DNA of 56,444 nt. It comes from a virus (Duplodnaviria; Caudoviricetes). The notes under the pieces were generated by a model. That model did no database searches. It was not told the origin of the DNA and was given only the letters and a program-made list of their open reading frames with translations. The position numbers were made by a program, and so were the translations under genes. The stretch covers positions 1-56,444 of the IMG/VR virus record IMGVR_UViG_3300037585_004733; one strand, written 5' to 3'. This document shows, piece by piece, positions 1,662 to 24,937 of the stretch (the stretch's first letter is position 1; every line of letters starts with the position of its first letter).

Positions 1662-1785
1662 AAAAGAATCTAAGCCAAAGACTCGAAACTGGAAAGATTA
1701 TGATCAAGAGAGTGTATTATTATATTCCTATTTAAAGAAAAAGGGAAAGCATAAGCGTGCCGAAGAAAATAAAAAGAGTAAATAA
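1654..1785 (+). CDS. Small basic hypothetical protein (43 aa)
   Basis: Manual translation MTKKESKPKTRNWKDYDQESVLLYSYLKKKGKHKRAEENKKSK; fills the gap between neighbours. Confidence 0.35.
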   Translation: MTKKESKPKTRNWKDYDQESVLLYSYLKKKGKHKRAEENKKSK

Positions 1786-9434: not shown

Positions 9435-10136
9435 ATGGTATCAAATGGACAACAAGGACCTCCGGTAACAAAAAGACAGGCGCAAAGTAATCGAAGAGCA
9501 ATTAAGCGTAAAAACTTAAGAGATGTAAGGCAATATGGTTACCAAAGCGGTGAACAAGCTCAGAAAGCTGGCACTAATTCTATGGTGGGTAGAATACTAG
9601 GATCTGGAGGAGGTATGGCTGCCTTATGGGCGTTATCAGCATTCGTGCCTGCAATTGGTATTCCTGTAATGTATGCGTTAGCTGCTGGTGCCGGAAGTTA
9701 TTATGGATCTAAAAAAGGTGAAAAGAATGTTGGCGGGTATGATATAGATCCTCTTGAAGGAAATTTATTCTACAAAGATGAAGAAGAAGATATTATAAAT
9801 GACATGAATCTCCTGCAAAATAAAGCTGATACAGCGAGAGTTAAAAATGCCGGTATTGATGCCCTTACTGCATACTTATCTGTTGGTGGTAATCTTCCTG
9901 GATTAAAAGGAGCTAATAAGCCAATCAGTCCATCAGCTGCAAGTGCAGTTGGCCCGGTTGGACCGATGCCAGCTATTACTAAGCCAGGATTTATGGATAT
10001 GGTTAAAACTGTAGGAGCTAATCTTGGTGAAAAAGCTACAGCTCCTAGTTTAGGCAATTTACTTGAATCTGGTAAAACATTAAGTGCAATCCAAGCTCCA
10101 TTTAGTATTTATAATTATACTAAGAATGATAAATAA
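9435..10136 (+). CDS. Putative DNA-pilot/ejection protein
   Basis: Gly/Ala-rich hydrophobic helices, no Cys, first gene of the internal-protein cluster. Confidence 0.55.
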   Translation: MVSNGQQGPPVTKRQAQSNRRAIKRKNLRDVRQYGYQSGEQAQKAGTNSMVGRILGSGGGMAALWALSAFVPAIGIPVMYALAAGAGSYYGSKKGEKNVGGYDIDPLEGNLFYKDEEEDIINDMNLLQNKADTARVKNAGIDALTAYLSVGGNLPGLKGANKPISPSAASAVGPVGPMPAITKPGFMDMVKTVGANLGEKATAPSLGNLLESGKTLSAIQAPFSIYNYTKNDK

Positions 10137-10634
10137 ATGAATACTTTATTTTCTTCCTATGTAAGTGGCGGTGGTTATGGAGGTTATTCTGGATTTAGTT
10201 CCGGTCAATTTGATGCAGACTATGCTGATGAGGAACTTGGAAATATATGGGAAGACTTTTTAGGCTTAGATTGGGGGGATGAAGATCCTCTCGCAATTGG
10301 CATGAGCTATGAAGGTTCAGAATTTATAGATAGTGAGCGGGATGCACGTAATCAATTAACTGATTTATATTCAGGCTTTCAAGCAGATACATTTGGAGCC
10401 AGAAAGAAGGCGGCAGAGCAAACAAAGAAATTTGATATAACATCTGGGAGAACTGGATTAATTTCCGGTAAAAGATTATCTGGACGAGAAGAGATATTAA
10501 CTGATTCTGCGGAGGAGCAACAAAGTTTATTCTCTAACTATCTCTCTAGTCGTACTGGCTTAGCCGGAACTATAGACGACGCAAGAAAAGACTGGGTTGA
10601 TTGGCTAGAATCACAAGAACCAGGGGAGGGATAA
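10137..10634 (+). CDS. Putative internal virion protein
   Basis: Acidic/helical, no Cys; GRTGLISG resembles GRSNLMSG of the next gene. Confidence 0.5.
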   Translation: MNTLFSSYVSGGGYGGYSGFSSGQFDADYADEELGNIWEDFLGLDWGDEDPLAIGMSYEGSEFIDSERDARNQLTDLYSGFQADTFGARKKAAEQTKKFDITSGRTGLISGKRLSGREEILTDSAEEQQSLFSNYLSSRTGLAGTIDDARKDWVDWLESQEPGEG

Positions 10635-11483
10635 ATGGCCGGTAGAAGCTTAGGAGATATTTATACGCAAAGCAGTTTTAAAGGAACTAGTTCTGGGGGT
10701 TTATCTATAGAAGATTTAGATGAGCTTTTTACAAAAGAAAGCGGAGGTTCAACAAGTGGTATTTCACCATGGGAGCTGAATTATCAAGATATAAATGCTT
10801 TCTATTATGATGGTCCTAGTGACGTGGCCACTGATCCTAATAGTCCCTTTATAACAGATGAATCTGGTAACTGGACCTATTCCCCAGATAATACTGATAT
10901 AGGGAAAGAGGATTTATATTGGAAGTATGATCAAAAGAAAGAATTTGATATAGAGAATATGTATGACAGGAAGATGAGTTCTCTTTCGGGAACTATCGAC
11001 AAAATGTTTAGAGAGAATAAGCAGAATAAACTCGCAACATCCATTAATATTGGAAGATCTAATCTTATGTCAGGGACACATTTAGACAGTTTAAAATCTC
11101 TATCAGAAGATGCAAATATGAAGCTTATTAAAACTAAAGCAGATATAAATATTGATGCTATTAAAACAGATATGAAGGTTAAAAACCTGCGGAAGGAATA
11201 CGAGTCTGGGATATTAGATGTTACTGATGATATTGGTGCTACGGCTGATATAGAAGCAGGGAGCTTAGGTTGGATTATTGATGAAAATGTAGTTAGTCAA
11301 TATGGCTTAACAACTGGCAATGTAGGTGATGTAATTACAATAAACGGCATAAAGTATACATATAAAAACTATAATACAGTATGGAAGTGGAGAGGGAAAA
11401 CAAGGTCTTATGGCTGGGTTCAGGAAGGTGCTGGTCCAGATCAAGGCAATAATGCCGGTAGCGATAACTGGGATAGTATTTAA
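10635..11483 (+). CDS. Putative internal virion protein
   Basis: No Cys; cluster position; probable paralog of the previous gene. Confidence 0.5.
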   Translation: MAGRSLGDIYTQSSFKGTSSGGLSIEDLDELFTKESGGSTSGISPWELNYQDINAFYYDGPSDVATDPNSPFITDESGNWTYSPDNTDIGKEDLYWKYDQKKEFDIENMYDRKMSSLSGTIDKMFRENKQNKLATSINIGRSNLMSGTHLDSLKSLSEDANMKLIKTKADINIDAIKTDMKVKNLRKEYESGILDVTDDIGATADIEAGSLGWIIDENVVSQYGLTTGNVGDVITINGIKYTYKNYNTVWKWRGKTRSYGWVQEGAGPDQGNNAGSDNWDSI

Positions 11484-11499
11484 AATTTAAGGAGATTTA

Positions 11500-13275
11500 A
11501 TGGCAAGAACCCCCGCACAAGAATTTATGAGAGGTATAAATGCGGAGTCATCTGATTTAGATGATCAGCTAGCTAGTACAGTAGGTGGTATTATGAATCA
11601 ACTGCCTTCCTTGTTAATGAACTATAGCTTGAAAGAAGATGCATTAGCAAAATCTATTGCTACAAAGTCTGCTGAAAATATACTATTAAAGTCTAGCAAG
11701 TTCACTGATAGCAAGCAATACGAAGATAGCATTTCCTATGTTGAGAATTTATTTGCAGAGCATGGTGATGATCTTACTATGACTGCAGTTAGAAATAATG
11801 CATTAGAAGCTTTAAATGAAAATATGTTTAACTTTAATGAAAATGAAAGTGCTACTATTAAGCTTAATTCTTTATTAAGTGATGAGCGTACAGCAAGAAC
11901 TGCATTAGATACTGATGCATATAGAGAAGTTATTAATGACTTTACTTCAATTTTTAATGCTAAGAAAAATTTTCTATCAAAGCAGGCTATTAATAGTTAC
12001 AGTGAAAAACAAGATGATATGTTGAGCTGGTTAGATCATGCTATTTTAACTATGAGTTGGGATGATGATCTAGAATCTCCAGGCCTACAAACTGCAGATA
12101 AAAATATTGAAATGTCTGGGCATGCATTAAAGTTAAATGACTTGAAGGCTGCATTTAAATACCTAGGAGAGGCAGGTAAAGGTATAGCTGCTGGGTCTGA
12201 ACATGCTGCTTATGCTGCTGCAGTACCACAATTAATAACAATAGGTAAGCAACATAATGCATCTGTAGATAAACTTACAAATCAAAAGTATGCTAAATGG
12301 GTATATAAATTCCCCATTCCTAGTCAGGCAAATGCATCTGATTCTAAGGCAATGAAAATGATGGGGCAACAAGTTGAAGTTCAATTGAGTAATATCCTTA
12401 AAGACACTACTGTTAAAGAATTAAAAGATGATGAAGGGATTCCTCTTGCTTCTGATAGCAACAAAAGCATATTAGGGATTATTCAATATCTAGAAGACCA
12501 AGGCGTATGGATGGACATGAATGCCGCAGTTCCTATGCTAGATCAAGTCTTAAACTTTAAGGGAACGGGCAAAGACGTAGAAAGACATGAAGCTATTAAC
12601 TTTTATTTTGGATTGCAAATGTATGATCAGTATTATCAAACTGGAGCGATAGCTAATATGGCAGCGGCTAACGCAGGGCAAAGCTTTGCAGGAGACTTAC
12701 AGGAGTTTGCTACGACAGCCGCTACTGTTAGCGATAGTGTAAATACTAATTTTAATGAAATTGAAGATGTTAGTAATCTTGTTCCTGTTGGGAATGATGA
12801 GTTTGGAACTCCTATATATCAACGTAGAGATACATGGGATATGGACCAGATTGATAAGGTAAATCAAAATAAAGCAGTACAAGATTCTTTGAAACAACAA
12901 CATTTAGATGCTTTGGTTGCATTAGATAGTCTAGCCTCTACATCTACACCTACTACCATTCCTATTGATCCTGGTAATGTAGGATTTGATCGAAGACAAG
13001 CACATCAATCAGCAGAAGGACTACTTGGGCTTGATACCGATAGCTACAGAGAGGATTTAGTACTTGACTCAACTGGGAAAACACTAGGTGCAAATATTAT
13101 TGAAAGATTGCAAGCTCGAACAGGAGATACATTAAGTGATATTCTCGTAAATCAATCACTCGATGATAATGAAACTAGCATGATAATTGAAGAATTATTT
13201 AATAATAGCATGAAGTATTTTGGACAAGAGTTTGAATCAATTGAGGCGATGCTAGCAGAAATTATGAATCAATAG
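11500..13275 (+). CDS. Putative internal virion/ejection protein
   Basis: 591 aa, helical, no Cys, strong AAGGAG RBS. Confidence 0.55.
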   Translation: MARTPAQEFMRGINAESSDLDDQLASTVGGIMNQLPSLLMNYSLKEDALAKSIATKSAENILLKSSKFTDSKQYEDSISYVENLFAEHGDDLTMTAVRNNALEALNENMFNFNENESATIKLNSLLSDERTARTALDTDAYREVINDFTSIFNAKKNFLSKQAINSYSEKQDDMLSWLDHAILTMSWDDDLESPGLQTADKNIEMSGHALKLNDLKAAFKYLGEAGKGIAAGSEHAAYAAAVPQLITIGKQHNASVDKLTNQKYAKWVYKFPIPSQANASDSKAMKMMGQQVEVQLSNILKDTTVKELKDDEGIPLASDSNKSILGIIQYLEDQGVWMDMNAAVPMLDQVLNFKGTGKDVERHEAINFYFGLQMYDQYYQTGAIANMAAANAGQSFAGDLQEFATTAATVSDSVNTNFNEIEDVSNLVPVGNDEFGTPIYQRRDTWDMDQIDKVNQNKAVQDSLKQQHLDALVALDSLASTSTPTTIPIDPGNVGFDRRQAHQSAEGLLGLDTDSYREDLVLDSTGKTLGANIIERLQARTGDTLSDILVNQSLDDNETSMIIEELFNNSMKYFGQEFESIEAMLAEIMNQ

Positions 13276-13284
13276 GAGAGAGAA

Positions 13285-16200
13285 TTGATACCGGGCATTC
13301 AAGCACATAATCCTAATACGTTAAATGATAGCACTTCTAAGCGAACTGTAGCTGAATTTGATACATGGTTTCGTAATAAATATGGCGATACTATATTACC
13401 TGGATTAACAGGTAGTGAGTTAGCTTATTATGCTGACAGAGAGATGTATAGCAACCAATTACTTCCGATGCTACATGACTTTAATATGGGTGGCAATTCT
13501 AACTCCAAACCAAAAATCTCAACGTCTCTAGTTAAAGAGGATGCGGGTTTTATTAACGGCTCAAAGTATACCCAAGATGATTGGAGATCTGATCCGGAAG
13601 AAGTAAAGCAACATAAGCAAGATATATTAGATGAGTCTTGGACTCAAGCAATATGGGATGAAGCTATTAGACCATTATTTAATCTCATTCCAGGGCATGC
13701 TGATCAACCAGAAGGCACAGCAAACCCAGTGCATGTATATGGTCATAAGTTTAGAGAGATGATTAATTTCGCTCCTGAATTTGGGATAGCTGAACTTGCT
13801 AATATACTTGATGTAGGGGCTCATATGCAGGGTATGCAGGGTATGGCTGAAGGATATACAAAGGCCTTGGGTGGAGGTATTCCAGGAGCATATACCCCCG
13901 GAATAATGCCACAAGGGGCAGAACAGGCATTAACTCAGGGAGCTGAATATGATCCCGAGAATGACCCTTATAACGACTTAAAAGAATTAGTCCAGGATAA
14001 TGATAAGCTAAACGAAACATTATATATGCTTAGGCATAAAGCTTATGAGTGGTATAATGATTCAGAGGCTGAACGTAAAGCACGTGAAGCTAGAGATCCA
14101 GCCATACAAGCATATAATAAATGGGTAGAGAGTGAGCCTGCTACTGCTAAAAACTTCTGGCATCCACATATGATTACTCGTGGATTTACTGAGGTTGCCC
14201 CTAGCGTTACGCTAGCTGTATTACCAGGAGTTGCATTAAGAGTAGGTGCAGGCTTAGTAGGTAGGCAAGCAGCTGGAATGCAAGTTGCAGGTATGATACA
14301 GGGAGGCAAAATTGGAACAGCAATGGAGACTATTGGTGGAGCTACTTATTCTGTAACTAATGCAATGTCTACACTTTCTGGCTATATGTCTATTCCTATG
14401 ATTATGGCGATGGAAGGTGGTTCAGAGTTCCAAGAGTCCATGTATTACCTTACAAAAGATCCTGAAGGACCACAACTCCCTCCACAAAAAGCAGTGCCTA
14501 TTGCTGGTACTGTTTCTACAGCATATTCTTTTATGTCTGGGTCTGCAGAAAAATTTCAGTTGGGAATTTTTGCTAAGTATCTTGGCATGGAAAAACAAGC
14601 TAAAAAATCATTTCTTACTGCTCTTTCCAGAAGACTTTTTATGAACTCTGAAAAATATGGTGGATGGGAGAAGTTCTTGCAAAAGGCTGGTACAGGTGGG
14701 CAATTACTTACTGATAATTTTATTGAAGCTGGTGTTGAATCTACGCAAACTGTTATGCAATTAATTACTAATGAGGCATTAAGAAATGGGATTGCTCAAC
14801 ATCCTGATAGAGCTTTAGAATTACTTGCCAAGCAAGTATGGGAAACTAATTACAGAGAGATGTATTTTGAAAATCCTGAAGTAACTCAAACATTCTGGCA
14901 ATCGTTTGCAGGTATGGCTCCTATGACTGTAGGCTCTCATTATGCCGGTAAATCTTTGTCTAATGATGAGATGTTTAAGGATCTACTTATGGATGGCCAT
15001 AAGATATCGGTAGAGCAAAAAGGCAATAACGTCAAGGTATTAGTAAACGAAGAGGTAATTACTGACTTAGACTTTGATAGCCCAGGACAAGCACAAGGAT
15101 TTAAAAAAGATTTAGATCAAGGGCTTAATGATAATGCTCCACAGTTTTCGCAACCATTTAAAGATTTTAATATTCAAGATATAGAAACTCCAGAGCAAAT
15201 GGCTCATGCACTTTCTGTTACCTTATGGAAAGGTAAGCATAGTGAGGATGGCAAAGCTCATTCCCAAGCTGGTAAGCCTATGATTAGTTATTGGCATTCA
15301 TTGCGTAGAGGCAATATGCCAGATACTACCCCAAGAGAAAATGATTCTCCGGAAGAAGCTGCTCGTAAGATTACTCAAGGGGTATTAATACAAGCTAAAT
15401 CTAATCCTGCAAACGTTAGGCAATGGCTGGCAAAGCTTATCCAAGGTATAGGTAGGATTGATAAAAAGAGAGCTGCAAATCTTATTAATAATCTTGAGAT
15501 ACCAGAATCTTTAAAAATAGAAATTGCTCAAGATATTGCTAGTCATAGTAAGGGAGAAAAGAAGGCACGTATTGGTGGAGAGGGCGATGGAACAAAAAGT
15601 TCTACTGAAATCTTAGATGATGTTCCTGATCAAGCATATATTGACGACTTAGCTGATCCTGATTCCAATGCATTAGATTCTGATGTAGATGTAGCATTAA
15701 GAGAAGCTGGCTTTGAATTTACCCTTGGAGAAGCTAATAGTTCTAGACAAGATTATAATACTGATGTTCTAAATGAACCTGAAATGGATGATCCTGATTT
15801 TGCTCAAAAGAATAGTGAGGAAAAACAATTCGAGCGAGATGTAAGAAATGCTCAATCTAACCTAGCAGCTCAAATTACTGCCATGAATTTGGACGTTAAT
15901 ACTTTAAAGGATGAGAAATTAGCACAAGCATTAATGCGTATGGTTGCTATTGGCTTGGATTCACAGACTGTATTATCAGCGCTTTCAGGTCGTAAGGCTG
16001 ATCCTTCTAAAGGAATAGAAGCTAAGGCTAAGTTAAGTAATACTAAACTAAATAAGCTTCAAAAGTCTTTAGGTCTAGGGTTTTCCAAGCAAGATATTTC
16101 TACTAATAGACCTAAGGTTGAGAATGCAGTTGTTGCTGAAATTGAAAAGCAAGCAGCCAAAGGCATTGTAGAGCCAGTAGTAGAAGATACTCCAGCTCCA

Positions 16201-16698
16201 GTTGTTGATTCTAAGACCGTAGAAGGCTTTGTAAAGGCCAATAAAAAAGTTCTGGATGAAGTACTTAAGACGAAAAAAGACAGCCTTATAGATGGCTCTA
16301 TTGCTGCAATACTACCCCAAGATGCATCTTACGGTGTAGATGAGGTAAGAGCACAGCTTGGACTAAAAGAGACAGTTCCTCAAGAGTCTCCAGTTGAAGA
16401 GGCGCCTTCGGCTCCAGCAATCCCAGAACAAGATATAGCAGCTATTATGGCTGCACAACAACAAGGTGTAGCAGCTGAGCTAGCAGATGAGTTTGGGGAT
16501 AATTTTGATGTACCGGTAGACGATTCTAATTTAGGAGATGACCTGGAGGATAGTGATCTAGAGGGTTTAAGTCCAGAGGTTCTTAAAAAAATGAATGAAT
16601 TGGATAGTGAAGATTTGACTATTGGCTCAAGTGAGTCTGCATCTGAAATAGCTTCAGGTCTAAATGATAAAGTTCAAGATGAATTGGGAGATTGTTAA
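13285..16698 (+). CDS. Large internal virion/ejection protein A
   Basis: 1137 aa; Gly/Ala-rich membrane-like middle (EAGVESTQ); acidic tail; its single Cys is the last residue. Confidence 0.65.
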   Translation: MIPGIQAHNPNTLNDSTSKRTVAEFDTWFRNKYGDTILPGLTGSELAYYADREMYSNQLLPMLHDFNMGGNSNSKPKISTSLVKEDAGFINGSKYTQDDWRSDPEEVKQHKQDILDESWTQAIWDEAIRPLFNLIPGHADQPEGTANPVHVYGHKFREMINFAPEFGIAELANILDVGAHMQGMQGMAEGYTKALGGGIPGAYTPGIMPQGAEQALTQGAEYDPENDPYNDLKELVQDNDKLNETLYMLRHKAYEWYNDSEAERKAREARDPAIQAYNKWVESEPATAKNFWHPHMITRGFTEVAPSVTLAVLPGVALRVGAGLVGRQAAGMQVAGMIQGGKIGTAMETIGGATYSVTNAMSTLSGYMSIPMIMAMEGGSEFQESMYYLTKDPEGPQLPPQKAVPIAGTVSTAYSFMSGSAEKFQLGIFAKYLGMEKQAKKSFLTALSRRLFMNSEKYGGWEKFLQKAGTGGQLLTDNFIEAGVESTQTVMQLITNEALRNGIAQHPDRALELLAKQVWETNYREMYFENPEVTQTFWQSFAGMAPMTVGSHYAGKSLSNDEMFKDLLMDGHKISVEQKGNNVKVLVNEEVITDLDFDSPGQAQGFKKDLDQGLNDNAPQFSQPFKDFNIQDIETPEQMAHALSVTLWKGKHSEDGKAHSQAGKPMISYWHSLRRGNMPDTTPRENDSPEEAARKITQGVLIQAKSNPANVRQWLAKLIQGIGRIDKKRAANLINNLEIPESLKIEIAQDIASHSKGEKKARIGGEGDGTKSSTEILDDVPDQAYIDDLADPDSNALDSDVDVALREAGFEFTLGEANSSRQDYNTDVLNEPEMDDPDFAQKNSEEKQFERDVRNAQSNLAAQITAMNLDVNTLKDEKLAQALMRMVAIGLDSQTVLSALSGRKADPSKGIEAKAKLSNTKLNKLQKSLGLGFSKQDISTNRPKVENAVVAEIEKQAAKGIVEPVVEDTPAPVVDSKTVEGFVKANKKVLDEVLKTKKDSLIDGSIAAILPQDASYGVDEVRAQLGLKETVPQESPVEEAPSAPAIPEQDIAAIMAAQQQGVAAELADEFGDNFDVPVDDSNLGDDLEDSDLEGLSPEVLKKMNELDSEDLTIGSSESASEIASGLNDKVQDELGDC

Positions 16699-19600
16699 TG
16701 GCCTGTCCTGTTAATAGAACGGAAATGATTAGAAGAATGTATGATTATGTTGCGCAATATTTAGGCGACACTAGATTTACTTTAGGTGATGCCAATACAG
16801 GCCCAGCAATATCATTGCAATATTTACGAGAAAGATTTAAGGCAAAGAATCCTGGATTAGTTGATTATCTAGATGAGGCAATTGCACAACATTTAAATAA
16901 TGAAGATCTAGTGGTATTATACCAAAGCACTAAACAGCCATTAAGTAAGGCTCCTCAAACTGTTATTAAGTATCCTTTAAATCCCATTGTGGATGATTAT
17001 TTAGGGTATAAAGCTGCCGATCAAACTGATTACGACAATGAAGATAATGGTCCTGCTAAAAACTCTCATATAGGTGATGGTCCAGGTTCTCATTTAATGG
17101 TTAATGATACTACCGGTACTAGTAAATATGATACATTATGGTTCTCTGCCTTAGGGTTAAGGCTTGACAAGCATGAACTTGCAGCACCATATAATGCTGT
17201 AAGACAAGCAGTAATCTTTGAAGAATTTTATGAATGGGTAAAATCTCAATACTCAGGGCAAGTTGATCCTTCTGATAAATTGCAAATGAATAAGCTAAGA
17301 ATGTTTTATCTTGTTAATAGACCTATGAATAGAATGGAAGTGTCTAGAAGGCAAGCTCTAATGTATGTCAATCGATTATTATTTGATAAGGGATATAAAG
17401 AGCAGGGTGATATTGATTATAAAGGACTCTACTGGAAACATAGCTTTAAAGATAAAAATGGGAGAGTAGTTAATCTTAAAACACAACGCCTTGAGCCAGA
17501 ATATGTTCCCACTAATTTTATAGATGGATTGCATACGAATGTAAGAGGTCGCTCTATGGGAGATATGACTGTATATTTTGCATTAGATAATATGATGAAT
17601 CTAATCCCAAAGCAAGATGGAGGATGGTTTGCAACTGATACTTCTAATGAGATGAGTTATTCAGAATTTGTAAACCTTGAGACAGCATTGTCTGAACAAA
17701 ATATGACATTTGTTGGAATGTCTGCTGGCGATAAAGGGAACATGCTTGTTTCCTATATTCTTCCTGAACATCTTGAAGATATTGCCCCTAAAAAAGATAT
17801 TGTTCAATATTTTTGGAAAAAAGAAGTTGATATAAGGCTAATCAATAGTTTAGATGATTTTGATGGAAGCTTTGATGAGTGGTATAGTAACTACCTATCT
17901 ATGTTCGAGTCTACAGACCCAGCTATTAAACTAAATCATACTCAAAAGCAGAATTTTGTAAAAATGACCAAGCTATTAGATAAGTTTATGGTAGCAAGAT
18001 TTGCTAAGCTCATGAAGAAAGAATTAAAGCAGCATTATAATAAAGCTGATGCTGCAAAGCATTTGAATGGGTTTCTTCAAAGTGCACTTGAAATACCCCG
18101 CATGAACAAGACTAGAGCAATACCTATGCATAAATGGCTTGCAGGTATTTTAGCAGGACATGAATGGTATAAAGGTGTACGTGGTAATTCTTATTTAGAT
18201 TATAAATCATTACATACATTTCATAGAATGAAAATACCGGTAACAAAAGGAATGATACTCGAAGAGATGAGTGATACTCGTCACCTTGTATTTGACCACG
18301 AAAATGTAGATATTTATGTAAATGATAAAAAGATAGAGCATTATACTGAAGTTGCAGGTTTATTAGGCGTAAAGAATATATCTGATGGGTGGAGTATGGT
18401 TTCTACTGACTTTTTAGATAGAACAGCTGATAATGCTGGTAATACAGCTGTCTTAGAAAATGATCATGGTACTCGTGAAGTTAAGAGTGTTGTAATGTAT
18501 TTATCTAAGGATGGTAAAAATTATGTTGAGCTTAAGCATTCAGAGCAACAAGCTATTGGTGAGGTAAAAATTACCCAAAAGGGAGATAAGAATGCGTTAA
18601 TAGCACAAACAATTAGTACAGATAATGGTATATTAATGTATGATGGTGATGGCAATACTATTGATATGATTTCTGATCTTGATGTTGCCAAAACTACTAC
18701 CGGAACATTCAGGAGAAAAATTGCTTCAGATAATTTTGCTAAGTTTAATTTGCCTACAGAATCTAGAAGAGTAGTCATACTTCCAAGGCCGTCATCTAAT
18801 CACTCTGTGTATGGGCCAGTACAAGTTCTTAATGCATTAAACTTTAAACCTGGAACTCTTTCTGATTTAGAAACTCAAGAATTAAATGATTTTATAGAAG
18901 CTTTTGATGCTATGATGCATGAGAATAGTGATGTTTGGACATCTACTATGTTAGGTGCGGTTGATGATCCTGATGCTATGCGTAGAATCGTTGGCTATAT
19001 GTATTCAGATAAAGCAGAAGCAAAGGATAATATTCGCAATAAAATGAATGCTACTGACGGCATTGGAATACATCATCCGGATAATATTACGGGATATATT
19101 GCTATGCTAAGCAATAACTTCCTTATAAAAGGAGCACTTCAAGCTCGAACATTTGTTCAAAAATTGCTTGGAAGTGGAGCTACTAAGAATGAAATGGTGG
19201 GTTCTGATTATGTGATGAAGCCAGACCTTGAAGGACGTATTCCATTAGATGAGAATGGAAACCCTATTGGAGTTATATTATCTGCTGGGAATAGAGGCAT
19301 TTTTAATAAAGCAGTAAAAATGATGATAGATGCTAAAGGCGTTGAATCTATTTTATCAGAATTACAGGATAATGAGCTTGTTAATTCAAGTATGTATAAT
19401 CAGATTGTATCTGGGTCAAAAGAGGAAAAGTTAAAGCTTATCTCTAGAGTATATAATAAAAATGTAAGCTTGGTAAATGAATTTCTAAATGATGAAGCCT
19501 TTGATGATATGCATGTACTTACATATCGATCTCCGATTTTAAGTTCTGTATCTGTTGCAGCTAGAAAGATATTAGAATTTACACAAGATGATGGGAATGC

Positions 19601-21143
19601 TGTTTATCACCATCCATCTGATACATTTAAGAGATTAATTGGAGATTATGATATCGATGAGGCTGGTGTTTTTGTAGTTGGAGCTGAATTTGTTCAAGCA
19701 TTATATAAGTTTCAAAACTCATCATTTCATAAACAGCGTTCAGATTATTCAGTAGACCTAGATATATTTGAGCTTGGCGAGGCTGCAGAATTATCTAATA
19801 AGCCAGGGCTATTTAAAGAAATGGTTATGCAGATTAAAGGTCACAGGACTCAAGGAAGCACAACAAATACTAAAAATTTAATAGGAACACTCTCGCAACA
19901 TATTAATAATATTGGATTTAGCGATGGATTAGAGCTTAGACCTAAAAACTTTAATGATAGTATTATAATGAATTATGCTCCTTTAGCTGCAGGCGTAACA
20001 CAGTCTAAATTAGATGCATTAGGGTGGACTTGGGCAAGTATTATAAAAATTGGCGATCAGAACTATTTAAAGACAACAGTAGAGCATGAAATGATGCTCT
20101 TAATTAATGCAGCAACTGACCATCCTAAGCTAAATCTTATCACTAAGCAATGGGGATTTGGTAAATCTCCTAAAGAAGGTAATAAAGAACCGGATAATAA
20201 TTGGCTTGTAAGAAAAATGTTTACTGCACATCGGGGAGGTCAGCAAGTTTCTACAGATGAGATTAGTGGAGCCCATATTAGATTAATGCGTGGGTTTAAA
20301 GATAATGATGGTGAATATCACAATGGAATATTAAGCCAATTTAATTATTCTAGAGTAAAACGTGGTGAAGATGGCCTTGGAAGAAAAATGAAAATGGGCC
20401 AAGTATGGTATAAGCTTGAAGAATTATATCGATTCTTACAAAATACTCCTAGTGAGCAAGCTGAGATACTTACAAGTCATGATCCAATAAAACAGCATTC
20501 TCTTCCTGATTTAAGCATTAATAGCTTAGACATGAATAATGTTACTACAATAGAAGAAAAATTAATTATACGTCCATGGCAGATGGTATTAGATAGATAT
20601 GGCGATGACTTTGCTAGTTCTCCATTTGCATATGAAGAGGATAGGATAGAATTTGCCCACTTTCAAGCTGCTGATAATGTTCAGGATTATGTAGCCAATA
20701 AATATAAGATTACTAGGGAAGGTGCAAAGAAGGCTATTATATTATCTAAGAGATTATTGCATAATTTTCATGCAGTTTTTGCAGAAAATAATAAGTATAC
20801 ATCTGAAGCTGTAAACTATGATGATGATTTGCTTATCTTAACTAAAAACTTTGAAGATGCAATTAAGCAGGGTGTTGATAAATATGGCGATGGATTTAGT
20901 GCATATGTGTCATTGAAGTATCTTGAAGGTTATTATAATACTACAGAGCAAGCACATAAAAGAAAATTGGATATCCTTCCCCCACTTGAGTTATGGAATG
21001 AAGAAGTTTATGTAGAGTACATGAAGAGCTGGGAGAAAGAGTTTTTTAAAGGGGAAATGGTTGTTGATCCGGCTGAACTAGAGAAATATAAGTCAAGATC
21101 TAAAGGACTTAAAACTGCTAATTTAATAGCGAGGTGTAACTAA
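16698..21143 (+). CDS. Virion-packaged two-barrel (double-psi) RNA polymerase, crAss-like
   Basis: Motifs HRMKIPVTKG, SDGWSMVS, VKSVV...LKHS, IDMISDLDVAK, YRSP, GDYDID (19641-19658), INAATDHPK; likely start at ATG 16698 (TAATG overlap). Confidence 0.85.
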   Translation: MACPVNRTEMIRRMYDYVAQYLGDTRFTLGDANTGPAISLQYLRERFKAKNPGLVDYLDEAIAQHLNNEDLVVLYQSTKQPLSKAPQTVIKYPLNPIVDDYLGYKAADQTDYDNEDNGPAKNSHIGDGPGSHLMVNDTTGTSKYDTLWFSALGLRLDKHELAAPYNAVRQAVIFEEFYEWVKSQYSGQVDPSDKLQMNKLRMFYLVNRPMNRMEVSRRQALMYVNRLLFDKGYKEQGDIDYKGLYWKHSFKDKNGRVVNLKTQRLEPEYVPTNFIDGLHTNVRGRSMGDMTVYFALDNMMNLIPKQDGGWFATDTSNEMSYSEFVNLETALSEQNMTFVGMSAGDKGNMLVSYILPEHLEDIAPKKDIVQYFWKKEVDIRLINSLDDFDGSFDEWYSNYLSMFESTDPAIKLNHTQKQNFVKMTKLLDKFMVARFAKLMKKELKQHYNKADAAKHLNGFLQSALEIPRMNKTRAIPMHKWLAGILAGHEWYKGVRGNSYLDYKSLHTFHRMKIPVTKGMILEEMSDTRHLVFDHENVDIYVNDKKIEHYTEVAGLLGVKNISDGWSMVSTDFLDRTADNAGNTAVLENDHGTREVKSVVMYLSKDGKNYVELKHSEQQAIGEVKITQKGDKNALIAQTISTDNGILMYDGDGNTIDMISDLDVAKTTTGTFRRKIASDNFAKFNLPTESRRVVILPRPSSNHSVYGPVQVLNALNFKPGTLSDLETQELNDFIEAFDAMMHENSDVWTSTMLGAVDDPDAMRRIVGYMYSDKAEAKDNIRNKMNATDGIGIHHPDNITGYIAMLSNNFLIKGALQARTFVQKLLGSGATKNEMVGSDYVMKPDLEGRIPLDENGNPIGVILSAGNRGIFNKAVKMMIDAKGVESILSELQDNELVNSSMYNQIVSGSKEEKLKLISRVYNKNVSLVNEFLNDEAFDDMHVLTYRSPILSSVSVAARKILEFTQDDGNAVYHHPSDTFKRLIGDYDIDEAGVFVVGAEFVQALYKFQNSSFHKQRSDYSVDLDIFELGEAAELSNKPGLFKEMVMQIKGHRTQGSTTNTKNLIGTLSQHINNIGFSDGLELRPKNFNDSIIMNYAPLAAGVTQSKLDALGWTWASIIKIGDQNYLKTTVEHEMMLLINAATDHPKLNLITKQWGFGKSPKEGNKEPDNNWLVRKMFTAHRGGQQVSTDEISGAHIRLMRGFKDNDGEYHNGILSQFNYSRVKRGEDGLGRKMKMGQVWYKLEELYRFLQNTPSEQAEILTSHDPIKQHSLPDLSINSLDMNNVTTIEEKLIIRPWQMVLDRYGDDFASSPFAYEEDRIEFAHFQAADNVQDYVANKYKITREGAKKAIILSKRLLHNFHAVFAENNKYTSEAVNYDDDLLILTKNFEDAIKQGVDKYGDGFSAYVSLKYLEGYYNTTEQAHKRKLDILPPLELWNEEVYVEYMKSWEKEFFKGEMVVDPAELEKYKSRSKGLKTANLIARCN

Positions 21144-24100
21144 TGGCGTGTGAAAGAGAGCAAGCTAGAGTAAGTAATGTAATCAAGAATATTGAAGATT
21201 CTTATGAAGAATCTTTCGGACGTAACCCAGAAGATTTTGATGCTCGTGAAAATATTGCATTAGAAATTGAACTAAACAAAAATGATATACTGATAACAAA
21301 AAATGCTCTTGCTATAGAAAAAGCAAAACTTTCAAAGAAAAAAACTTACACTAGCAAAGAAAAGATTCGATTAGAAAAAGCATTAAAGAACTTTGAAAAG
21401 CTATCAAAGAGATTAGATGTAGAATTTAAAACTTATCCTTTGAAGAAAAAATTAATGATTGGCATACGAAACTTAATGCTTAATAGGCTTGAAATTAATG
21501 CTGATGAAAATACATATAGTGAATCTTTTGAGCCTGATGTATTAATTAAATCTATGAAAGATATATTAGTTAAAAGGCATATTCCGTTTAATTCATTAGA
21601 GCAACTACCAATGGCTGAAATAAATTCAATGCATAATTTTATTGCAAAGTCATTTATAAAGCAAGATAAGCTTGAACATAAGAATAAAAGAACTAGATTT
21701 TCAACTCAAATTAAAGATCCGGCTATGGCAATGTTAGATGCAGATAAAACTATGACTGCATATAGATTTATTGAGCGGTCAAAGGATTATATTGCGGATA
21801 GATATGCTCAAGCTAATAAATATCATGAAGAAATCTCAGAAATTGAAAGTTTGATAGAAAACGACGCTCATAGTGGTACCTATTACCGCGTTTCAGACAC
21901 TGCGGCAAACCCAGCGTCCAGAAAAAAAGAAAGTGTCAGGAACATGGTAGCAATGGCCTCAGATATGCTAAACGGTCAAACTAGATACTTTCAGCATCAA
22001 AATATCTATAATCCAGATGGAAGCTTAACTGCAGAGTATTTAGAAGATAAAAAAGAGTATGAAAAGAAACTAAGGCATAATCTTACCAACAAAGTTCAGA
22101 TTAAAGATGGAAGAACTATTGTTCAAGGCATCTATGATGGTGGAGATATTCAAAAATTTACAGATCCTAAAACTAAAAAAGATTTTTATTATATCTCAGT
22201 TAGAGCTGAAGATGGTAATGGACATGAATATTTTAGGGTTTATGAAGTTCCTACTAGAATGATAGAATGGGAAGGTGATACCGGAGTTAAAAAGCGTGTA
22301 CCTCAAATGATGTTTCCTGATTATATAGATACAAACGAAGAATGGAAAAAATATTTCACATCAGAAAATACTCGAGGTAATTTATTATCTGATAGAATGG
22401 ATGAAGGTTGGTACACTGCAAGTACATATGTACCATTAGAGGGAGAATATAAAGAAGCTAAGACTGGTAGATTAAAAACATTTAAAACATCAGCATGGAA
22501 TCGATTTGTTAAAGATGATACCGTAGATAATGCTAATGATCCATTGCCAGACTCTGTTAAGGATTTTGTAGTTCAGATGAGAGGTTTCTTTAAATTCGCT
22601 CATGGATCTGCGATTAGTAAATCAATATCAGCAAATAAAAAGAGAAAAAATGCTATAACCAAAGCAAAGCAAGAAGGTAGAGTAAAGTCTGAAAATATTG
22701 ATGAAGCTTTGGAAGAAATTATGGGAATAGACTTCTATAATAATGTCTTTGAAAAGGATGGTAATTTAATTACAGTTAATACTATAATGGGCCATCGAGA
22801 TTTATATCTTCCATTTAAGTTTAATATCGTAGACACCATTAATAATAATTTACGCACCCATGAACATATCGAAAGAGGTATTGAGAAGATAGAAGATAGT
22901 ATTAATGCTTTAATTGATGATCCTGATGGGGATATGAATGAAGTTATTAGATTAAATGAAGAGCTAATCAAGGAAAAGGATATACTCCAGCACTCTCAAG
23001 AAATGCTTGAAGTTATGACCGGTAAACGAAGCTCTCATGATGTTAATACCAAAATGAGTCAAGAGACTATATTTGGGTTTGCTAGACATAGAGGCGCTGC
23101 TTCAAGTCCAATAGCTAATTTCTATCCTAATTATGATGGCATAAGAAAAGATATGGATGTCTTTTATGAATATGCTGATGAGCTAGCTAAAGTTACTTCT
23201 CAAAATGAATTGAAATCAGATTTAATTGAGCCAATGATTTATACTAAGGGAGACAATACCAAACGGTATTTAATAAGTCAGTTAAAAGCTACATTTGGAC
23301 AATTAGATGCTGGTGCTGAGCTATTTTTCTTTAAATATGGAGATGAACAACTAGCAGATATATTAAGCAAAATGCCGGGAGTAAATATTAGTCCAGAAGG
23401 ATTATATTTCTTCTTAAAAAGTAATAGTGCATTAGTTAGTGGAAATTTGCTTGGGGCAGGATCTGCTATGAATAATAACTTTCAAAGATTTAGTATCTAT
23501 ATGAAAGCTAATGTTCAACTACAGCTTGCTATTGATGATTTACCTCAAGCAACTAAAGATATGATTGTTAAAAAATCTGGAACTGATGATGTAATGCAGA
23601 TGATTGGAGATGCACTGATTAGTGCTACAGGGGAGGAGCCGTCATTCTTTACTGGCATGCATACTAAAAAAGATTTAGCTTTATTGTGGCTAACGCCAAA
23701 AATGTTCTTAGCTAGGTCATTAAAGAATAATGGTTTCTGGATGAGATGGATTGAGAAGGTTATAGAACGTGGAGGTAATGATGCTAATGCTGCTGGAAGA
23801 AGAGTTTTTATGCGTGGTGTATATGATTTAGCTCATGGATTAGCCGAAGGAAGTGTTAACAAGAAAACAGAAAAGGCAATCATTAGTAAACTTAAAAGAG
23901 TCATGACTACTGATATGATTAATACATTCTTGCATTGGGGATTACGTGGTGGTTGGATGTATAATATATTTAAAAGAACTAATTTAGGTAAATCTTTTAG
24001 TTTTATGGAATCTGAAGGAGAAATGCGTAAGGAATCATCTGTAATGGGAGCTTTAATGACTGTAGCTCAGCTTAAGAATGAAGCAGGATGGAAAGAGTGG

Positions 24101-24829
24101 GAAAGAGAGGAAGGAAAATCTAGATATGAGCATCCAGAGGTTCTTGCTGGCGCAAGAAATCTTACTAATGCTACTATGTTTGGTATGTCACAACAGTTTC
24201 AACCTCTATTTTTACGTGGAGCTATGGGACAAACTTTATTTAAATTTTGGAATTATACTCGTGCAGAGGCTGCTTTAGAATGGAATACTTGGAGATCTTA
24301 TCGAGATAGCTTGCAGAAACTCCCATTAAATGAACGTAAAAGAATATACGGTCAGATCTTTACAAATGATGTAGAAAGCATGCATCCATCTATGCAAGGT
24401 TGGGCTAAAATGTTAAGAACAAGAGTTTTAGTGTCAACGGCTGTTATAGCCGGCCAAATATACTTACCTATTTTTACAGAAGCAAGTAAATGGGGGATGA
24501 AATTAGGTGGGAAAATGTTAGGGACATCATTTGGAAGTATACGTCGTGGTGGTAGTTCTATTGTGGCTGATACAGCATTCAGAGGTATAGGTCTTATACT
24601 TAAATCATTTGCAATATATGGCAATGATAAAGATGATGACGAATATTATCGAGAATCAATGCGATATTTTCTTCCTATATATATGAATATGGTAATAGAT
24701 ACATTATGGAGAGTATTCCTATCAAATGATGAATATTCATTAAGTGAAATATTCTCAAATAATGTTACTATATATAATAAGGGATTTGGGAATCTAGTTA
24801 AAGAAGTTGACGGGCTCTTTAGTGAGTAG
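21143..24829 (+). CDS. Large internal virion/ejection protein C
   Basis: 1228 aa; C-terminal helical region (ARNLTNATMF...GQTLFKFWNY) of the kind seen in large ejected proteins; single Cys at residue 3. Confidence 0.65.
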   Translation: MACEREQARVSNVIKNIEDSYEESFGRNPEDFDARENIALEIELNKNDILITKNALAIEKAKLSKKKTYTSKEKIRLEKALKNFEKLSKRLDVEFKTYPLKKKLMIGIRNLMLNRLEINADENTYSESFEPDVLIKSMKDILVKRHIPFNSLEQLPMAEINSMHNFIAKSFIKQDKLEHKNKRTRFSTQIKDPAMAMLDADKTMTAYRFIERSKDYIADRYAQANKYHEEISEIESLIENDAHSGTYYRVSDTAANPASRKKESVRNMVAMASDMLNGQTRYFQHQNIYNPDGSLTAEYLEDKKEYEKKLRHNLTNKVQIKDGRTIVQGIYDGGDIQKFTDPKTKKDFYYISVRAEDGNGHEYFRVYEVPTRMIEWEGDTGVKKRVPQMMFPDYIDTNEEWKKYFTSENTRGNLLSDRMDEGWYTASTYVPLEGEYKEAKTGRLKTFKTSAWNRFVKDDTVDNANDPLPDSVKDFVVQMRGFFKFAHGSAISKSISANKKRKNAITKAKQEGRVKSENIDEALEEIMGIDFYNNVFEKDGNLITVNTIMGHRDLYLPFKFNIVDTINNNLRTHEHIERGIEKIEDSINALIDDPDGDMNEVIRLNEELIKEKDILQHSQEMLEVMTGKRSSHDVNTKMSQETIFGFARHRGAASSPIANFYPNYDGIRKDMDVFYEYADELAKVTSQNELKSDLIEPMIYTKGDNTKRYLISQLKATFGQLDAGAELFFFKYGDEQLADILSKMPGVNISPEGLYFFLKSNSALVSGNLLGAGSAMNNNFQRFSIYMKANVQLQLAIDDLPQATKDMIVKKSGTDDVMQMIGDALISATGEEPSFFTGMHTKKDLALLWLTPKMFLARSLKNNGFWMRWIEKVIERGGNDANAAGRRVFMRGVYDLAHGLAEGSVNKKTEKAIISKLKRVMTTDMINTFLHWGLRGGWMYNIFKRTNLGKSFSFMESEGEMRKESSVMGALMTVAQLKNEAGWKEWEREEGKSRYEHPEVLAGARNLTNATMFGMSQQFQPLFLRGAMGQTLFKFWNYTRAEAALEWNTWRSYRDSLQKLPLNERKRIYGQIFTNDVESMHPSMQGWAKMLRTRVLVSTAVIAGQIYLPIFTEASKWGMKLGGKMLGTSFGSIRRGGSSIVADTAFRGIGLILKSFAIYGNDKDDDEYYRESMRYFLPIYMNMVIDTLWRVFLSNDEYSLSEIFSNNVTIYNKGFGNLVKEVDGLFSE

Positions 24830-24937
24830 CTCCGGATGTTCTTCATATAAATTAATTAAGCGCTCTAGTTTTTTTAGAGCGTTTTTTATTGCTATTAGTT
24901 CTTTTTTTATGTCTTTTATTGGTCTATTGTTTGTCAC
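24794..24937 (-). CDS. Small coiled-coil protein (47 aa)
   Basis: Manual translation from GTG: MTNNRPIKDIKKELIAIKNALKKLERLINLYEEHPELLTKEPVNFFN; GGAG RBS. Confidence 0.45.
   Translation of the reverse strand: MTNNRPIKDIKKELIAIKNALKKLERLINLYEEHPELLTKEPVNFFN
24861..24887 (+). terminator. Intrinsic terminator where the two genome arms converge
   Basis: CGCTCTA-loop-TAGAGCG hairpin followed by T6. Confidence 0.65.

What the first reader, a model, noticed from the sequence alone, without database searches (positions are those of the whole stretch)
13285..24829. Three giant ejected proteins have cysteines only at their junctions, suggesting a head-to-tail disulfide chain
Seen by manual scan of about 3850 aa: only four Cys. 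Protein A ends ...ELGDC, the RNAP starts MAC and ends ...ARCN, and protein C starts MAC. A has none at its N-terminus and C none at its C-terminus. Both junctions are TAATG-coupled (16696-16700, 21141-21145). Inference: A-RNAP-C are linked tail-to-head by two disulfides (or metal sites) into a pseudo-polyprotein that is threaded out of the capsid in order and released in the reducing cytoplasm.
Basis: partly seen in the sequence, partly recalled or inferred. Interest (0 to 1): 0.8.

Follow-up and report, generated by a model that had tools for sequence, protein, structure and literature searches.

The report
Cysteine pairs stitch split phage polymerase proteins
Three giant proteins that this phage probably carries in its head, one of them an RNA polymerase, have cysteines only where one protein ends and the next begins, and relatives with fused genes lack exactly those cysteines, which suggests a removable chemical stitch between the proteins.

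Summary
A (1137 aa), B (1481 aa) and C (1228 aa) hold 4 Cys in 3846 residues: A's last residue, B residues 3 and 1480, and C residue 3.

It is not chance. In 21 related marine lineages every junction end examined keeps its Cys (19/19, 19/19, 20/20, 20/20), with 4 internal Cys in 74,490 residues.

B folds like the virion RNA polymerase of crAss-like phage phi14:2. The same Cys pattern holds in 16 of 16 GenBank crAss-like genomes examined, including phi14:2 and crAss001.

The decisive evidence comes from gene fusions:
- 52 of 52 A-B fusions have no N-terminal Cys and keep a C-terminal Cys; 49 have exactly one Cys.
- One A-B-C fusion (3651 aa) has none.
- The single-chain N4 polymerase (3500 aa) has none.

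So each chain break carries a Cys pair and each fusion lacks it.

Best reading (about 0.6): head-to-tail interchain disulfides make a pseudo-polyprotein in the virion, cut by reduction in the host. The bond, the threading order and the release are inferred, not shown. I found no report of this pattern in the papers searched.

The parts
13285..16698 (+). Gene A, 1137 aa. First piece of the trio, poorly conserved, no family match.
   Evidence: Alignment A3 has 13-22% identity to the window's A. Residues about 250-550 match the N-terminal part of A-B fusion proteins. No HExxH motif.
16693..16695 (+). Codon of Cys 1137, the last residue and only Cys of A.
   Evidence: A Cys 0-13 residues from the end is kept in 19 of 19 lineages with a complete A C-terminus.
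16696..16700 (+). TAATG stop/start overlap between A and B.
16698..21143 (+). Gene B, 1481 aa. Two-barrel RNA polymerase of the crAss-like virion RNAP / QDE-1 type.
   Evidence: AF2 model of residues 300-1481: pLDDT 83.2, pTM 0.78. Foldseek top hit 6vr4_A, the phi14:2 virion RNAP, E = 7.6e-10, followed by QDE-1 chains.
16704..16706 (+). Codon of B Cys 3.
   Evidence: Invariant column in alignment A1. Present in 19 of 19 lineages.
19644..19658 (+). DYDID (B residues 983-987), the DxDxD metal-binding motif.
   Evidence: D983, D985 and D987 are invariant. Variants in relatives: DFDID, DHDID, DNDYD, DADGD, DSDGD, DGDGD. phi14:2 gp66 has 1361-DFDID-1365 (passage of the preprint 10.1101/2020.03.07.982082).
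21135..21137 (+). Codon of B Cys 1480, the second-to-last residue.
   Evidence: Invariant column. Present in 20 of 20 lineages. The last 12 residues of the model have pLDDT under 50, so the tail is probably flexible.
21141..21145 (+). TAATG stop/start overlap between B and C.
21143..24829 (+). Gene C, 1228 aa. Mostly helical with a beta domain at about residues 280-460; fold not matched.
   Evidence: AF2 model of residues 1-1200: pLDDT 71.4. No PDB fold match at E <= 0.001. No Pfam or PHROG hit.
21149..21151 (+). Codon of C Cys 3, the only Cys of C.
   Evidence: Invariant column in alignment A4. Present in 20 of 20 lineages.
9435..13275 (+). Four Cys-free ORFs (233, 165, 282 and 591 aa) just upstream of A. 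Candidate further ejected or cargo proteins.
   Evidence: In most related loci listed, the ORFs directly upstream of A are also Cys-free. No family match for the 233-, 282- and 591-aa ORFs that were searched. The role is inferred from position only.

Best explanation
A, B and C are the split form of one giant virion-carried module. B is its RNA polymerase, corresponding by fold to gp66 of phi14:2 and by Cys pattern to gp50 of crAss001.

The four cysteines are two junction pairs: A C-end with B N-end, and B C-end with C N-end. Each pair most likely forms an interchain disulfide. In the virion the three chains would then be one linear, nearly unbranched pseudo-polyprotein of about 3850 residues.

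Every other Cys is selected against, as in the Cys-free ejection proteins of N4-like phages. This would prevent any other disulfide from blocking unfolding or passage.

On infection the chain would pass the tail channel and envelope as one thread, and the host's reducing cytoplasm would cut it into three proteins.

Shown here: the pattern, its conservation, its loss on fusion, and the RNAP fold of B.
Inferred: virion packaging of this phage's proteins, the S-S bond, when it forms, the order of passage, and release by reduction.
For: 1. Exact pattern in the window; P = 5e-9 for the Cys depletion alone.

2. Conservation in marine relatives. The window plus 35 loci collapse to 21 lineages at under 90% identity in B. 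Junction Cys are present in 19/19 A C-ends, 19/19 B N-ends, 20/20 B C-ends and 20/20 C N-ends. Only 4 internal Cys occur in 74,490 residues. A is only 13-22% identical across lineages yet keeps its terminal Cys.

3. Both TGT and TGC are used at all four positions, so selection acts on the residue and not on a DNA motif.

4. The same pattern holds in 16 of 16 GenBank crAss-like genomes examined. By annotation, 39 of 40 junction ends have a Cys within 10 residues of the end. The 40th, crAss002 gp33, has Cys 35, which becomes Cys 3 of 'MSC' if translation starts at Met 33. In crAss001 and DAC15, A is encoded on the opposite strand from B and C, so the pattern does not depend on gene adjacency.

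5. Free ends are never Cys-bearing. 0 of 15 A or AB N-ends and 0 of 15 C or BC C-ends have a Cys within 15 residues.

6. Fusions lack the pair.
- Fpv1 A-B fusion: 1 Cys in 4401 aa, at position 4400; its C has Cys 3.
- Eight A-B and four B-C fusions among the GenBank genomes all keep only the remaining junction pair at their ends.
- 7 of 8 A-B fusions have no Cys within about 100 aa of the mapped junction.
- In a profile search of 1.84 billion representatives, 52 of 52 A-B fusions (132,110 residues) have a Cys within 6 residues of the C-end and none at the N-end. 49 have exactly one Cys. 19 of 19 B-alone forms with both ends have Cys at both ends.
- The one A-B-C fusion (P0106, 3651 aa) has no Cys, whereas its sister P0071 keeps the C-terminal Cys.
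- Locus L055 has AB (2453 aa, Cys 2452 only) followed by C (1255 aa, Cys 5 only).

7. N4 gp50 (3500 aa, one chain), gp51 and gp52 have 0 Cys.

8. Disulfides exist in crAss001 virions by cryo-EM, in the tail and the portal vertex. gp47, gp49 and gp50 are in those virions by mass spectrometry (passages of PMC10172136).

9. The Cys sit 0-13 residues from the chain ends, and B's C-terminal tail is low-confidence and probably flexible.
Against: - No bond is shown; all support is comparative.
- Independent events are few. The tree of 62 B cores needs only 2 architecture changes, so 52/52 reflects conservation within one clade. Other transitions come from the crAss families.
- Assembly happens in a reducing cytoplasm, so a disulfide would have to form in the capsid or after lysis. 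Gut crassviruses live without oxygen.
- A two-Cys metal bridge would give the same sequence pattern.
- Drobysheva et al. suggest that fused forms are cleaved into parts. If so, linkage might not be needed at all.
- One representative (P0092, 1213 aa) has an apparently complete C-terminal region without a terminal Cys.
- Seven B-sized proteins lack the N-terminal Cys. They align from their first residues to the interior of A-B fusions and may be truncated gene calls, but real Cys-less splits are not excluded.
- Some gut phages have many internal Cys: cr7_1 has 13 in each protein and cr271_1 B-C has 15.
- A and C of the marine clade show no detectable sequence homology to crAss A and C.
Confidence: 0.6

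Rival explanations
1. The junction pairs are real, but the link is a metal ion (such as Zn, Cu(I) or Fe) bridging the two thiolates, possibly shared between copies of the complex, rather than a disulfide.
For: The sequence pattern is the same as for a disulfide. A metal bridge could form in the reducing cytoplasm during assembly, which a disulfide cannot easily do.
Against: There is only one Cys per end, with no CxxC and no conserved His or Cys near it (tails listed). Two-piece forms have just two Cys in about 3700-6000 residues, too few for a Cys4 site within one complex. Disulfides are documented in crAss001 virions.
Confidence: 0.12
2. Terminal Cys bond to something other than the neighbouring chain: the same Cys of a second copy (homodimers), or the portal, capsid or tail proteins, as anchors for packaging.
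For: crAss001 uses disulfides between structural proteins. p-crAssphage gp47, another putative cargo protein, also has a lone Cys at 856 of 857.
Against: This does not explain why A's N-end and C's C-end never carry Cys (0 of 15 each in GenBank genomes; 0 of 52 AB N-ends). It also does not explain why both Cys of a junction are absent together in fusions, or why the triple fusion and N4 gp50 have none.
Confidence: 0.08
3. The terminal Cys are free thiols with a non-linking role, for example redox sensing that switches the polymerase on in the host, or a processing or recognition mark at chain ends.
For: phi14:2 gp66 is packaged in a self-inhibited state whose activation is unexplained (passages of the preprint).
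Against: A role at chain ends as such would also predict Cys at the free ends. A role in polymerase activation would not predict loss in fusions or in the Cys-free triple fusion.
Confidence: 0.07
4. Chance or shared ancestry without function.
For: Few independent architecture changes were found.
Against: The four Cys columns are invariant while flanking sequence diverges to 13-35% identity. Both Cys codons are used. There are 4 internal Cys in 74,490 residues. Matching changes appear in separate lineages: the marine AB clade, P0106, Suoliviridae, Intestiviridae and Fpv1.
Confidence: 0.01

Closest known systems
phi14:2 gp65/gp66/gp67 (locus tags gp078/gp077/gp076) and crAss001 gp47/gp50/gp49: virion RNA polymerase with two companion giant proteins of crAss-like phages
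   Same: Three giant genes at the end of the structural block. B's model has the fold of gp66 (6vr4) and a DxDxD motif. The terminal-Cys pattern is identical: phi14:2 has Cys 1797 of 1797; 3 and 2179 of 2180; and 3 of 1421. The crAss001 proteins are in virions by mass spectrometry.
   Different: Genome of 56 kb against about 100 kb. B is 1481 aa against 2180-2412. Profile comparison of B is not significant. A lacks the zincin motif. C shows no detectable homology. Portal, capsid and terminase do not match crassviruses. The papers read do not mention these cysteines.
Cys-free ejection proteins of Schitoviridae (N4 gp50/gp51/gp52; DEV gp71-73)
   Same: Giant virion RNA polymerase ejected into the host, with near-total suppression of Cys. 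This is published: gp71 homologs have 0.00075% Cys against 0.865% across the proteomes, explained there by passage through the periplasm (PMC11445570, passages). N4 counted here: 0 Cys in gp50, gp51 and gp52.
   Different: N4 has a single chain with a T7-like polymerase (recalled, not tested here) and no Cys at all. Here the module is split and keeps Cys exactly at the breaks.
Polyvalent proteins of phages and conjugative elements (Iyer et al. 2017, PMC5512222)
   Same: Giant multi-domain proteins delivered with the DNA, often with a metallopeptidase proposed to cut them into parts (passages). The protein atlas gave weak leads to LPD domains for A and C.
   Different: That paper proposes release by proteolysis. 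It has no occurrence of 'cysteine' or 'disulfide'. The LPD leads are low-share and untested.
Two-chain toxins whose chains are held by one disulfide that is reduced after translocation (recalled from general knowledge, no call)
   Same: Works alike, if the reading is right: a single interchain disulfide keeps parts together during passage through a narrow channel, and cytosolic reduction frees the active part.
   Different: No relation in sequence, origin or purpose. Those chains arise by cleavage of one precursor, whereas here they come from separate genes.

Membership tests
crAss-like / QDE-1-type two-barrel RNA polymerase (B) | DxDxD metal-binding motif | tested here: met
   DYDID at B 983-987. 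D983, D985 and D987 are invariant. Variants occur in relatives.
crAss-like / QDE-1-type two-barrel RNA polymerase (B) | Fold like phi14:2 gp66 | tested here: met
   Foldseek 6vr4_A E = 7.6e-10, prob 1.00, TM 0.42 by query length; QDE-1 chains follow at 3.6e-5 and weaker. Model pLDDT 83.2.
crAss-like / QDE-1-type two-barrel RNA polymerase (B) | Sequence-profile homology to crassvirus polymerases | tested here: inconclusive
   hhalign probability 0.6% and 1.8%, although the second alignment ends on the shared YRxP...DxDxD stretch. No PDB sequence hit.
crAss-like / QDE-1-type two-barrel RNA polymerase (B) | Packaged in the virion, ejected, and transcribes early genes | not testable with these tools
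   Known for phi14:2 gp66 (abstract and passages of the preprint). Inferred here.
Tripartite crassvirus cargo module (A, polymerase, C) | Three giant genes in the order A, B, C after the tail genes | tested here: met
   compare.
Tripartite crassvirus cargo module (A, polymerase, C) | Zincin (HExxH) domain in A | tested here: not met
   No HExxH in any of the 29 marine A sequences, complete or partial. HExxH appears in the consensus of the related A-B fusion clade.
Tripartite crassvirus cargo module (A, polymerase, C) | C homologous to crassvirus C | tested here: not met
   hhalign A4 against A8: probability 0.2%.
Order Crassvirales (the phage as a whole) | Genome of about 90-105 kb with capsid, portal and terminase of crassvirus type | tested here: not met
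   56,444 bases with terminal repeats. No capsid match. None of the listed or tallied organisms in the terminase and portal searches is a crassvirus. Shared extras: a ThiF plus JAB gene pair.
Cys-suppressed ejection proteins (as described for Schitoviridae) | Cys frequency far below that of the proteome | tested here: met
   0 internal Cys in 3846 aa against 0.77% elsewhere in the window. 4 internal Cys in 74,490 residues in the clade.
Interchain-disulfide-linked assembly | Complementary single Cys at the ends that meet, absent when the ends are fused | tested here: met
Interchain-disulfide-linked assembly | A covalent S-S bond between the chains in virions | not testable with these tools
   Needs non-reducing gels or disulfide mapping by mass spectrometry.

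The most novel reading that the evidence does not exclude
Across crAss-like phages and their marine relatives, a junction disulfide acts as a reversible peptide bond. The giant polymerase module can be encoded as one, two or three genes. Split versions are re-joined in the virion by end-to-end disulfides into one thread, and total avoidance of other Cys keeps that thread free of cross-links. The host's own reducing power then serves as the 'protease' that releases and perhaps activates the polymerase. Fused versions would use the zincin domain instead.
Probability: 0.5. Interest if true: 0.85.

Novelty: new variant of a known kind. Interest (0 to 1): 0.8.

Why it matters
Crassviruses are described as the most abundant viruses of the human gut (abstract of PMC10172136). 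How their huge polymerase proteins are packed, pass a tail channel narrower than 50 Å and become active is stated to be open (passages of PMC10172136 and PMC13434306).

The rule found here is one Cys pair per chain break and none in fusions. It gives a concrete and inexpensive test in three cultured phages: crAss001, phi14:2 and DAC15.

If the stitch is real, it explains three things:
- why the module can switch between one, two and three genes during evolution;
- why ejected proteins avoid Cys;
- how several proteins can leave the capsid as one thread in a fixed order and amount.

It also offers a simple sequence signature for finding ejected protein sets in uncultured phages.

Tried and rejected
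**Family and sequence searches**
- Pfam and PHROGs on A, B and C found nothing.
- PDB sequence profiles for B, C and A gave nothing meaningful, only coiled-coil or low-complexity noise.
- tblastn of B and of the capsid protein against GenBank phages gave no match.
- A single-protein scan of IMG/VR found nothing; the alignment-based scan worked.
- Profile comparisons of the marine clade against crassvirus B and C were not significant.
- The fold search for C found no match at E <= 0.001.
- The protein atlas gave only weak LPD-domain leads.

**Complex prediction**
- Complex prediction was run on B's C-terminal domain with C residues 1-650. The verdict was 'no answer', score 0.00, controls not run. 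This is evidence neither for nor against binding.

**Ideas rejected**
- A DNA-level motif explains the Cys codons: rejected, because both TGT and TGC are used and crAss001 and DAC15 encode A on the other strand.
- Split inteins or ligation chemistry: rejected, because the tails beyond the Cys are only 0-13 residues.
- A single Cys4 metal site shared by all four ends: rejected, because two-piece forms keep only two Cys.
- A zincin 'cysteine switch': rejected, because the marine A has no HExxH.

**Literature**
- Searches, and 'find' calls in PMC10172136, the preprint 10.1101/2020.03.07.982082, PMC13434306, PMC10136315, PMC11445570 and PMC5512222, found no mention of these junction cysteines.
- The journal version of Drobysheva et al. 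was not held.
- Supplements are closed. The extended mass-spectrometry tables of PMC10172136 could bear on this claim, because that study compared reduced and untreated virions.

**Rows not counted**
- 60 of the 150 listed representatives, all under 1200 aa, were not analysed.
- In one search, 10 fragments, P0079 (cut at its C-end) and 7 B-sized proteins without an N-terminal Cys were kept apart.
- Among the 86 representatives with a complete C-terminal region (triple fusion excluded), 85 have a Cys within 6 residues of the end. P0092 is the miss.
- 10 A-B rows whose profile match covered only part of the core were left out of the tree.


Full report
**1. The observation**

The three ORFs are A 13285-16698 (1137 aa, TTG start), B 16698-21143 (1481 aa) and C 21143-24829 (1228 aa). 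They hold four cysteines in 3846 residues:
- the last residue of A (...ELGDC);
- residues 3 and 1480 of B (MAC..., ...ARCN);
- residue 3 of C (MAC...).

Both junctions are TAATG overlaps at the stated coordinates. In the ORFs of the window outside the block 9435-24829, Cys makes up 0.77% of residues (93 of 12,044; my arithmetic on the table). About 30 Cys would therefore be expected in the trio; Poisson P(4 or fewer) = 5e-9. The four ORFs upstream (9435-13275) have no Cys. The window is a complete 56,444-base virus record with terminal repeats.

**2. Conservation in relatives**

A search of 5.8 billion proteins with B returned 10 proteins, the window's own among them, at 27-87% identity for the nine relatives. 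All 10 have exactly two Cys, one at position 3-8 and one 0-3 residues from the end. One of the ten, P0009, is 1265 aa and covers only 84% of B.

Alignment-based scans fetched 10 IMG/VR loci and 25 metagenome loci holding the gene trio. With the window these collapse to 21 lineages at under 90% identity in B. Taking the most complete copy per lineage:
- A has a Cys 0-13 residues from its end in 19 of 19.
- B has a Cys at position 3-13 in 19 of 19.
- B has a Cys 0-3 residues from its end in 20 of 20.
- C has a Cys at position 3-11 in 20 of 20.

Internal Cys number 4 in 74,490 residues: one in B of L027, two in C of L009 and one in C of L010. A is only 13-22% identical across lineages and still keeps the terminal Cys. 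Both Cys codons occur at each of the four positions, with TGT:TGC counts of 12:4, 10:8, 14:4 and 10:7. Selection therefore acts on the amino acid.

**3. What the proteins are**

No Pfam, PHROG or PDB sequence match exists for A, B or C.

An AlphaFold2 model of B residues 300-1481, built on 21 sequences, has mean pLDDT 83.2 and pTM 0.78. Its last 12 residues, which include Cys 1480, have pLDDT under 50. Foldseek against the PDB ranks 6vr4_A first, the virion-packaged RNA polymerase of crAss-like phage phi14:2 (E = 7.6e-10). QDE-1 chains follow (3.6e-5 and weaker), then plant RDR2 and bacterial beta-prime subunits.

B carries DYDID at residues 983-987 with all three Asp invariant. phi14:2 gp66 has DFDID at 1361-1365 (passage of the preprint). 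Profile-profile comparison with crassvirus polymerases is not significant.

C is mostly helical with one beta domain (pLDDT 71.4). It has no fold match and no detectable homology to crassvirus C proteins. A has no HExxH motif.

The phage itself is not a crassvirus by size or by capsid, portal and terminase similarity. It does share the gene layout and a ThiF plus JAB gene pair with crAss001.

**4. The same pattern in cultured crAss-like phages**

- phi14:2: the protein upstream of the polymerase (1797 aa) has one Cys, its last residue. The polymerase (2180 aa) has Cys 3 and 2179 only. The downstream protein (1421 aa) has Cys 3 only.
- crAss001: gp47 has Cys 2339 of 2341 only. gp50 has Cys 5, 1334 and 2404 of 2412. 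gp49 has Cys 5 only. gp47 lies on the opposite strand from gp50 and gp49.
- DAC15 and cr111_1 follow the same pattern.

Sixteen GenBank genomes were examined in all. By annotation, 39 of 40 junction ends carry a Cys within 10 residues of the end. The exception is crAss002 gp33 (Cys 35), whose sequence reads ...YMSC..., so a start at Met 33 would give MSC. The C gene of cr10_1 is unannotated and cut by the record end; its ORF begins ...MKIIC.

None of 15 A or AB N-ends, and none of 15 C or BC C-ends, has a Cys within 15 residues of the end.

**5. Fusions are the natural experiment**

*A-B fusions among GenBank genomes.* These are Fpv1, cr1_1, cr50_1, cr10_1, cr109_1, cr52_1, cr118_1 and cr7_1.
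- All have no N-terminal Cys.
- All have a Cys 0-10 residues from the C-end.
- All have a partner C with Cys at position 3-6.
- Fpv1's fusion has one Cys in 4401 residues.
- Mapping the junction with local BLAST shows no Cys within about 100 residues of it in 7 of 8. cr7_1 is ambiguous.

*B-C fusions among GenBank genomes.* These are Carjivirus communis, crAss002, Rudgehvirus and cr271_1. All keep the A C-end and BC N-end pair, and all have no Cys at the C-end.

*Profile search of representatives.* A profile of the B core was searched against 1.84 billion representative proteins and gave 227 hits at E <= 0.001. I analysed 90 of the 150 listed.
- 19 B-alone proteins (1461-1678 aa) all have Cys at both ends; 17 have exactly two Cys.
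- 52 A-B fusions (1847-3653 aa; 132,110 residues) all have a Cys within 6 residues of the C-end and none at the N-end. They hold 4 internal Cys in total, and 49 have exactly one Cys.
- The N-terminal parts of these fusions match the window's A, down to E = 8e-19.
- One A-B-C fusion, P0106 (3651 aa), contains B-like and C-like regions and has no Cys at all. Its sister on the tree, P0071, keeps the C-terminal Cys.

*Further cases.* A locus of the fusion clade shows AB (2453 aa, Cys 2452 only) followed by C (1255 aa, Cys 5 only). N4's single-chain polymerase gp50 (3500 aa), gp51 and gp52 have none.

In every architecture, each chain break carries a Cys at both of the ends that meet, and the free ends carry none. 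In the marine clade the number of Cys is almost exactly twice the number of breaks.

**6. Results against, and limits**

- The tree of 62 cores needs only two architecture changes. B-alone forms one side of a branch (support 100), and P0106 is nested in the fusion clade. The large counts therefore reflect conservation within clades, not many independent events. Further transitions come from the crassvirus families.
- P0092 has an apparently complete C-terminal region without a terminal Cys.
- Seven B-sized proteins lack the N-terminal Cys. Their nearest relatives are A-B fusions, to whose interior they align from their first residues. One is 99.7% identical to the C-terminal half of P0102. They are probably truncated gene calls, but the library gives no context.
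- Some gut phages carry many internal Cys.
- Complex prediction gave no answer; it is reported under Tried and rejected only.

**7. Mechanism**

Pairing A's C-end with B's N-end, and B's C-end with C's N-end, is the only scheme consistent with all four architectures. Any other pairing leaves orphan Cys in the two-piece forms.

With one thiol per end, no CxxC and no conserved His or Cys nearby, a disulfide is the simplest chemistry. Several published facts make it plausible:
- Disulfides are seen by cryo-EM in crAss001 virions.
- gp47, gp49 and gp50 are in those virions.
- These proteins are thought to pass partly unfolded through constrictions under 50 Å (passages of PMC10172136).

Cys suppression in ejected proteins is already published for N4-like phages, where it is explained by passage through the periplasm (PMC11445570).

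I therefore read the trio as a disulfide-stitched pseudo-polyprotein. The stitches lie at the very ends of the chains, so the thread stays almost linear. Reduction in the cytoplasm would release the three proteins. Fused forms may instead rely on the zincin domain, as proposed for polyvalent proteins.

Still inferred:
- packaging of these proteins in this phage;
- the bond itself;
- when it forms, given that assembly takes place in a reducing cytoplasm;
- the order of passage;
- release by reduction.

**8. Novelty**

Cys-free ejection proteins and the tripartite crassvirus polymerase module are known. The junction-Cys rule, and its loss on fusion, were not found in any paper searched or read.

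I rate this a new variant of a known kind. Interest is 0.8, because it applies to the whole crAss-like group and is directly testable in cultured phages.

Noticed in passing
window 29547-31111 (- strand): Overlapping ThiF-family (E = 2.6e-19) and JAB-like (E = 1.6e-4, below the Pfam cut-off) genes. crAss001 has a similar pair, gp76 ThiF and gp77 metalloprotease.
   Followed up: partly
window 40460-42862 (+) and 38789-39613 (+): An 800-aa ORF (no PHROG match) and a 274-aa ORF (not searched), just upstream of the terminase, both Cys-free. Possibly further virion-internal proteins.
   Followed up: no
window 1757-7333 (+): A 1858-aa ORF (GTG start, 10 Cys, no PHROG match) a few genes upstream of the Cys-free block. 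By position it may correspond to the crAss001 muzzle protein gp44, which has 1371 aa and 10 Cys.
   Followed up: no
L040 (Carjivirus communis) gp47, locus 1588-4161: Another putative cargo protein (857 aa) has a single Cys at 856 of 857, and its neighbour gp46 has none. The end-Cys device may be used by other cargo proteins too.
   Followed up: no
L043 (crAss002) gp33, locus 9088: The annotated start is probably 32 codons too far upstream. The sequence reads ...YMSC..., and a start at Met 33 gives the usual MSC N-end.
   Followed up: partly
Alignment A9 (A-B fusion clade, P0071 and relatives): The fusion clade has HExxH in its A part and HEADHDGDT at the catalytic site. The split marine clade has no HExxH and mostly DxDID.
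   Followed up: partly
L040, L044, L046: Several crassviruses encode small thioredoxin-like proteins near the module (Carjivirus gp39 and gp37, cr111_1 gp042, Rudgehvirus 'TRX'). They may make or break the proposed bonds, or may serve ribonucleotide reductase. No thioredoxin was found among 10 window ORFs scanned.
   Followed up: no
L049, L050, L054 (cr109_1, cr52_1, cr7_1): The annotated giant genes contain 26-148 in-frame stops under table 11, the known stop-codon recoding of some crassviruses. The terminal Cys pattern still holds.
   Followed up: no
window 26519-28306, 28923-29429, 24924-25271 (- strand): Primase-helicase, ERF recombinase and a PDDEXK nuclease make up the replication block on the opposite strand.
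   Followed up: no
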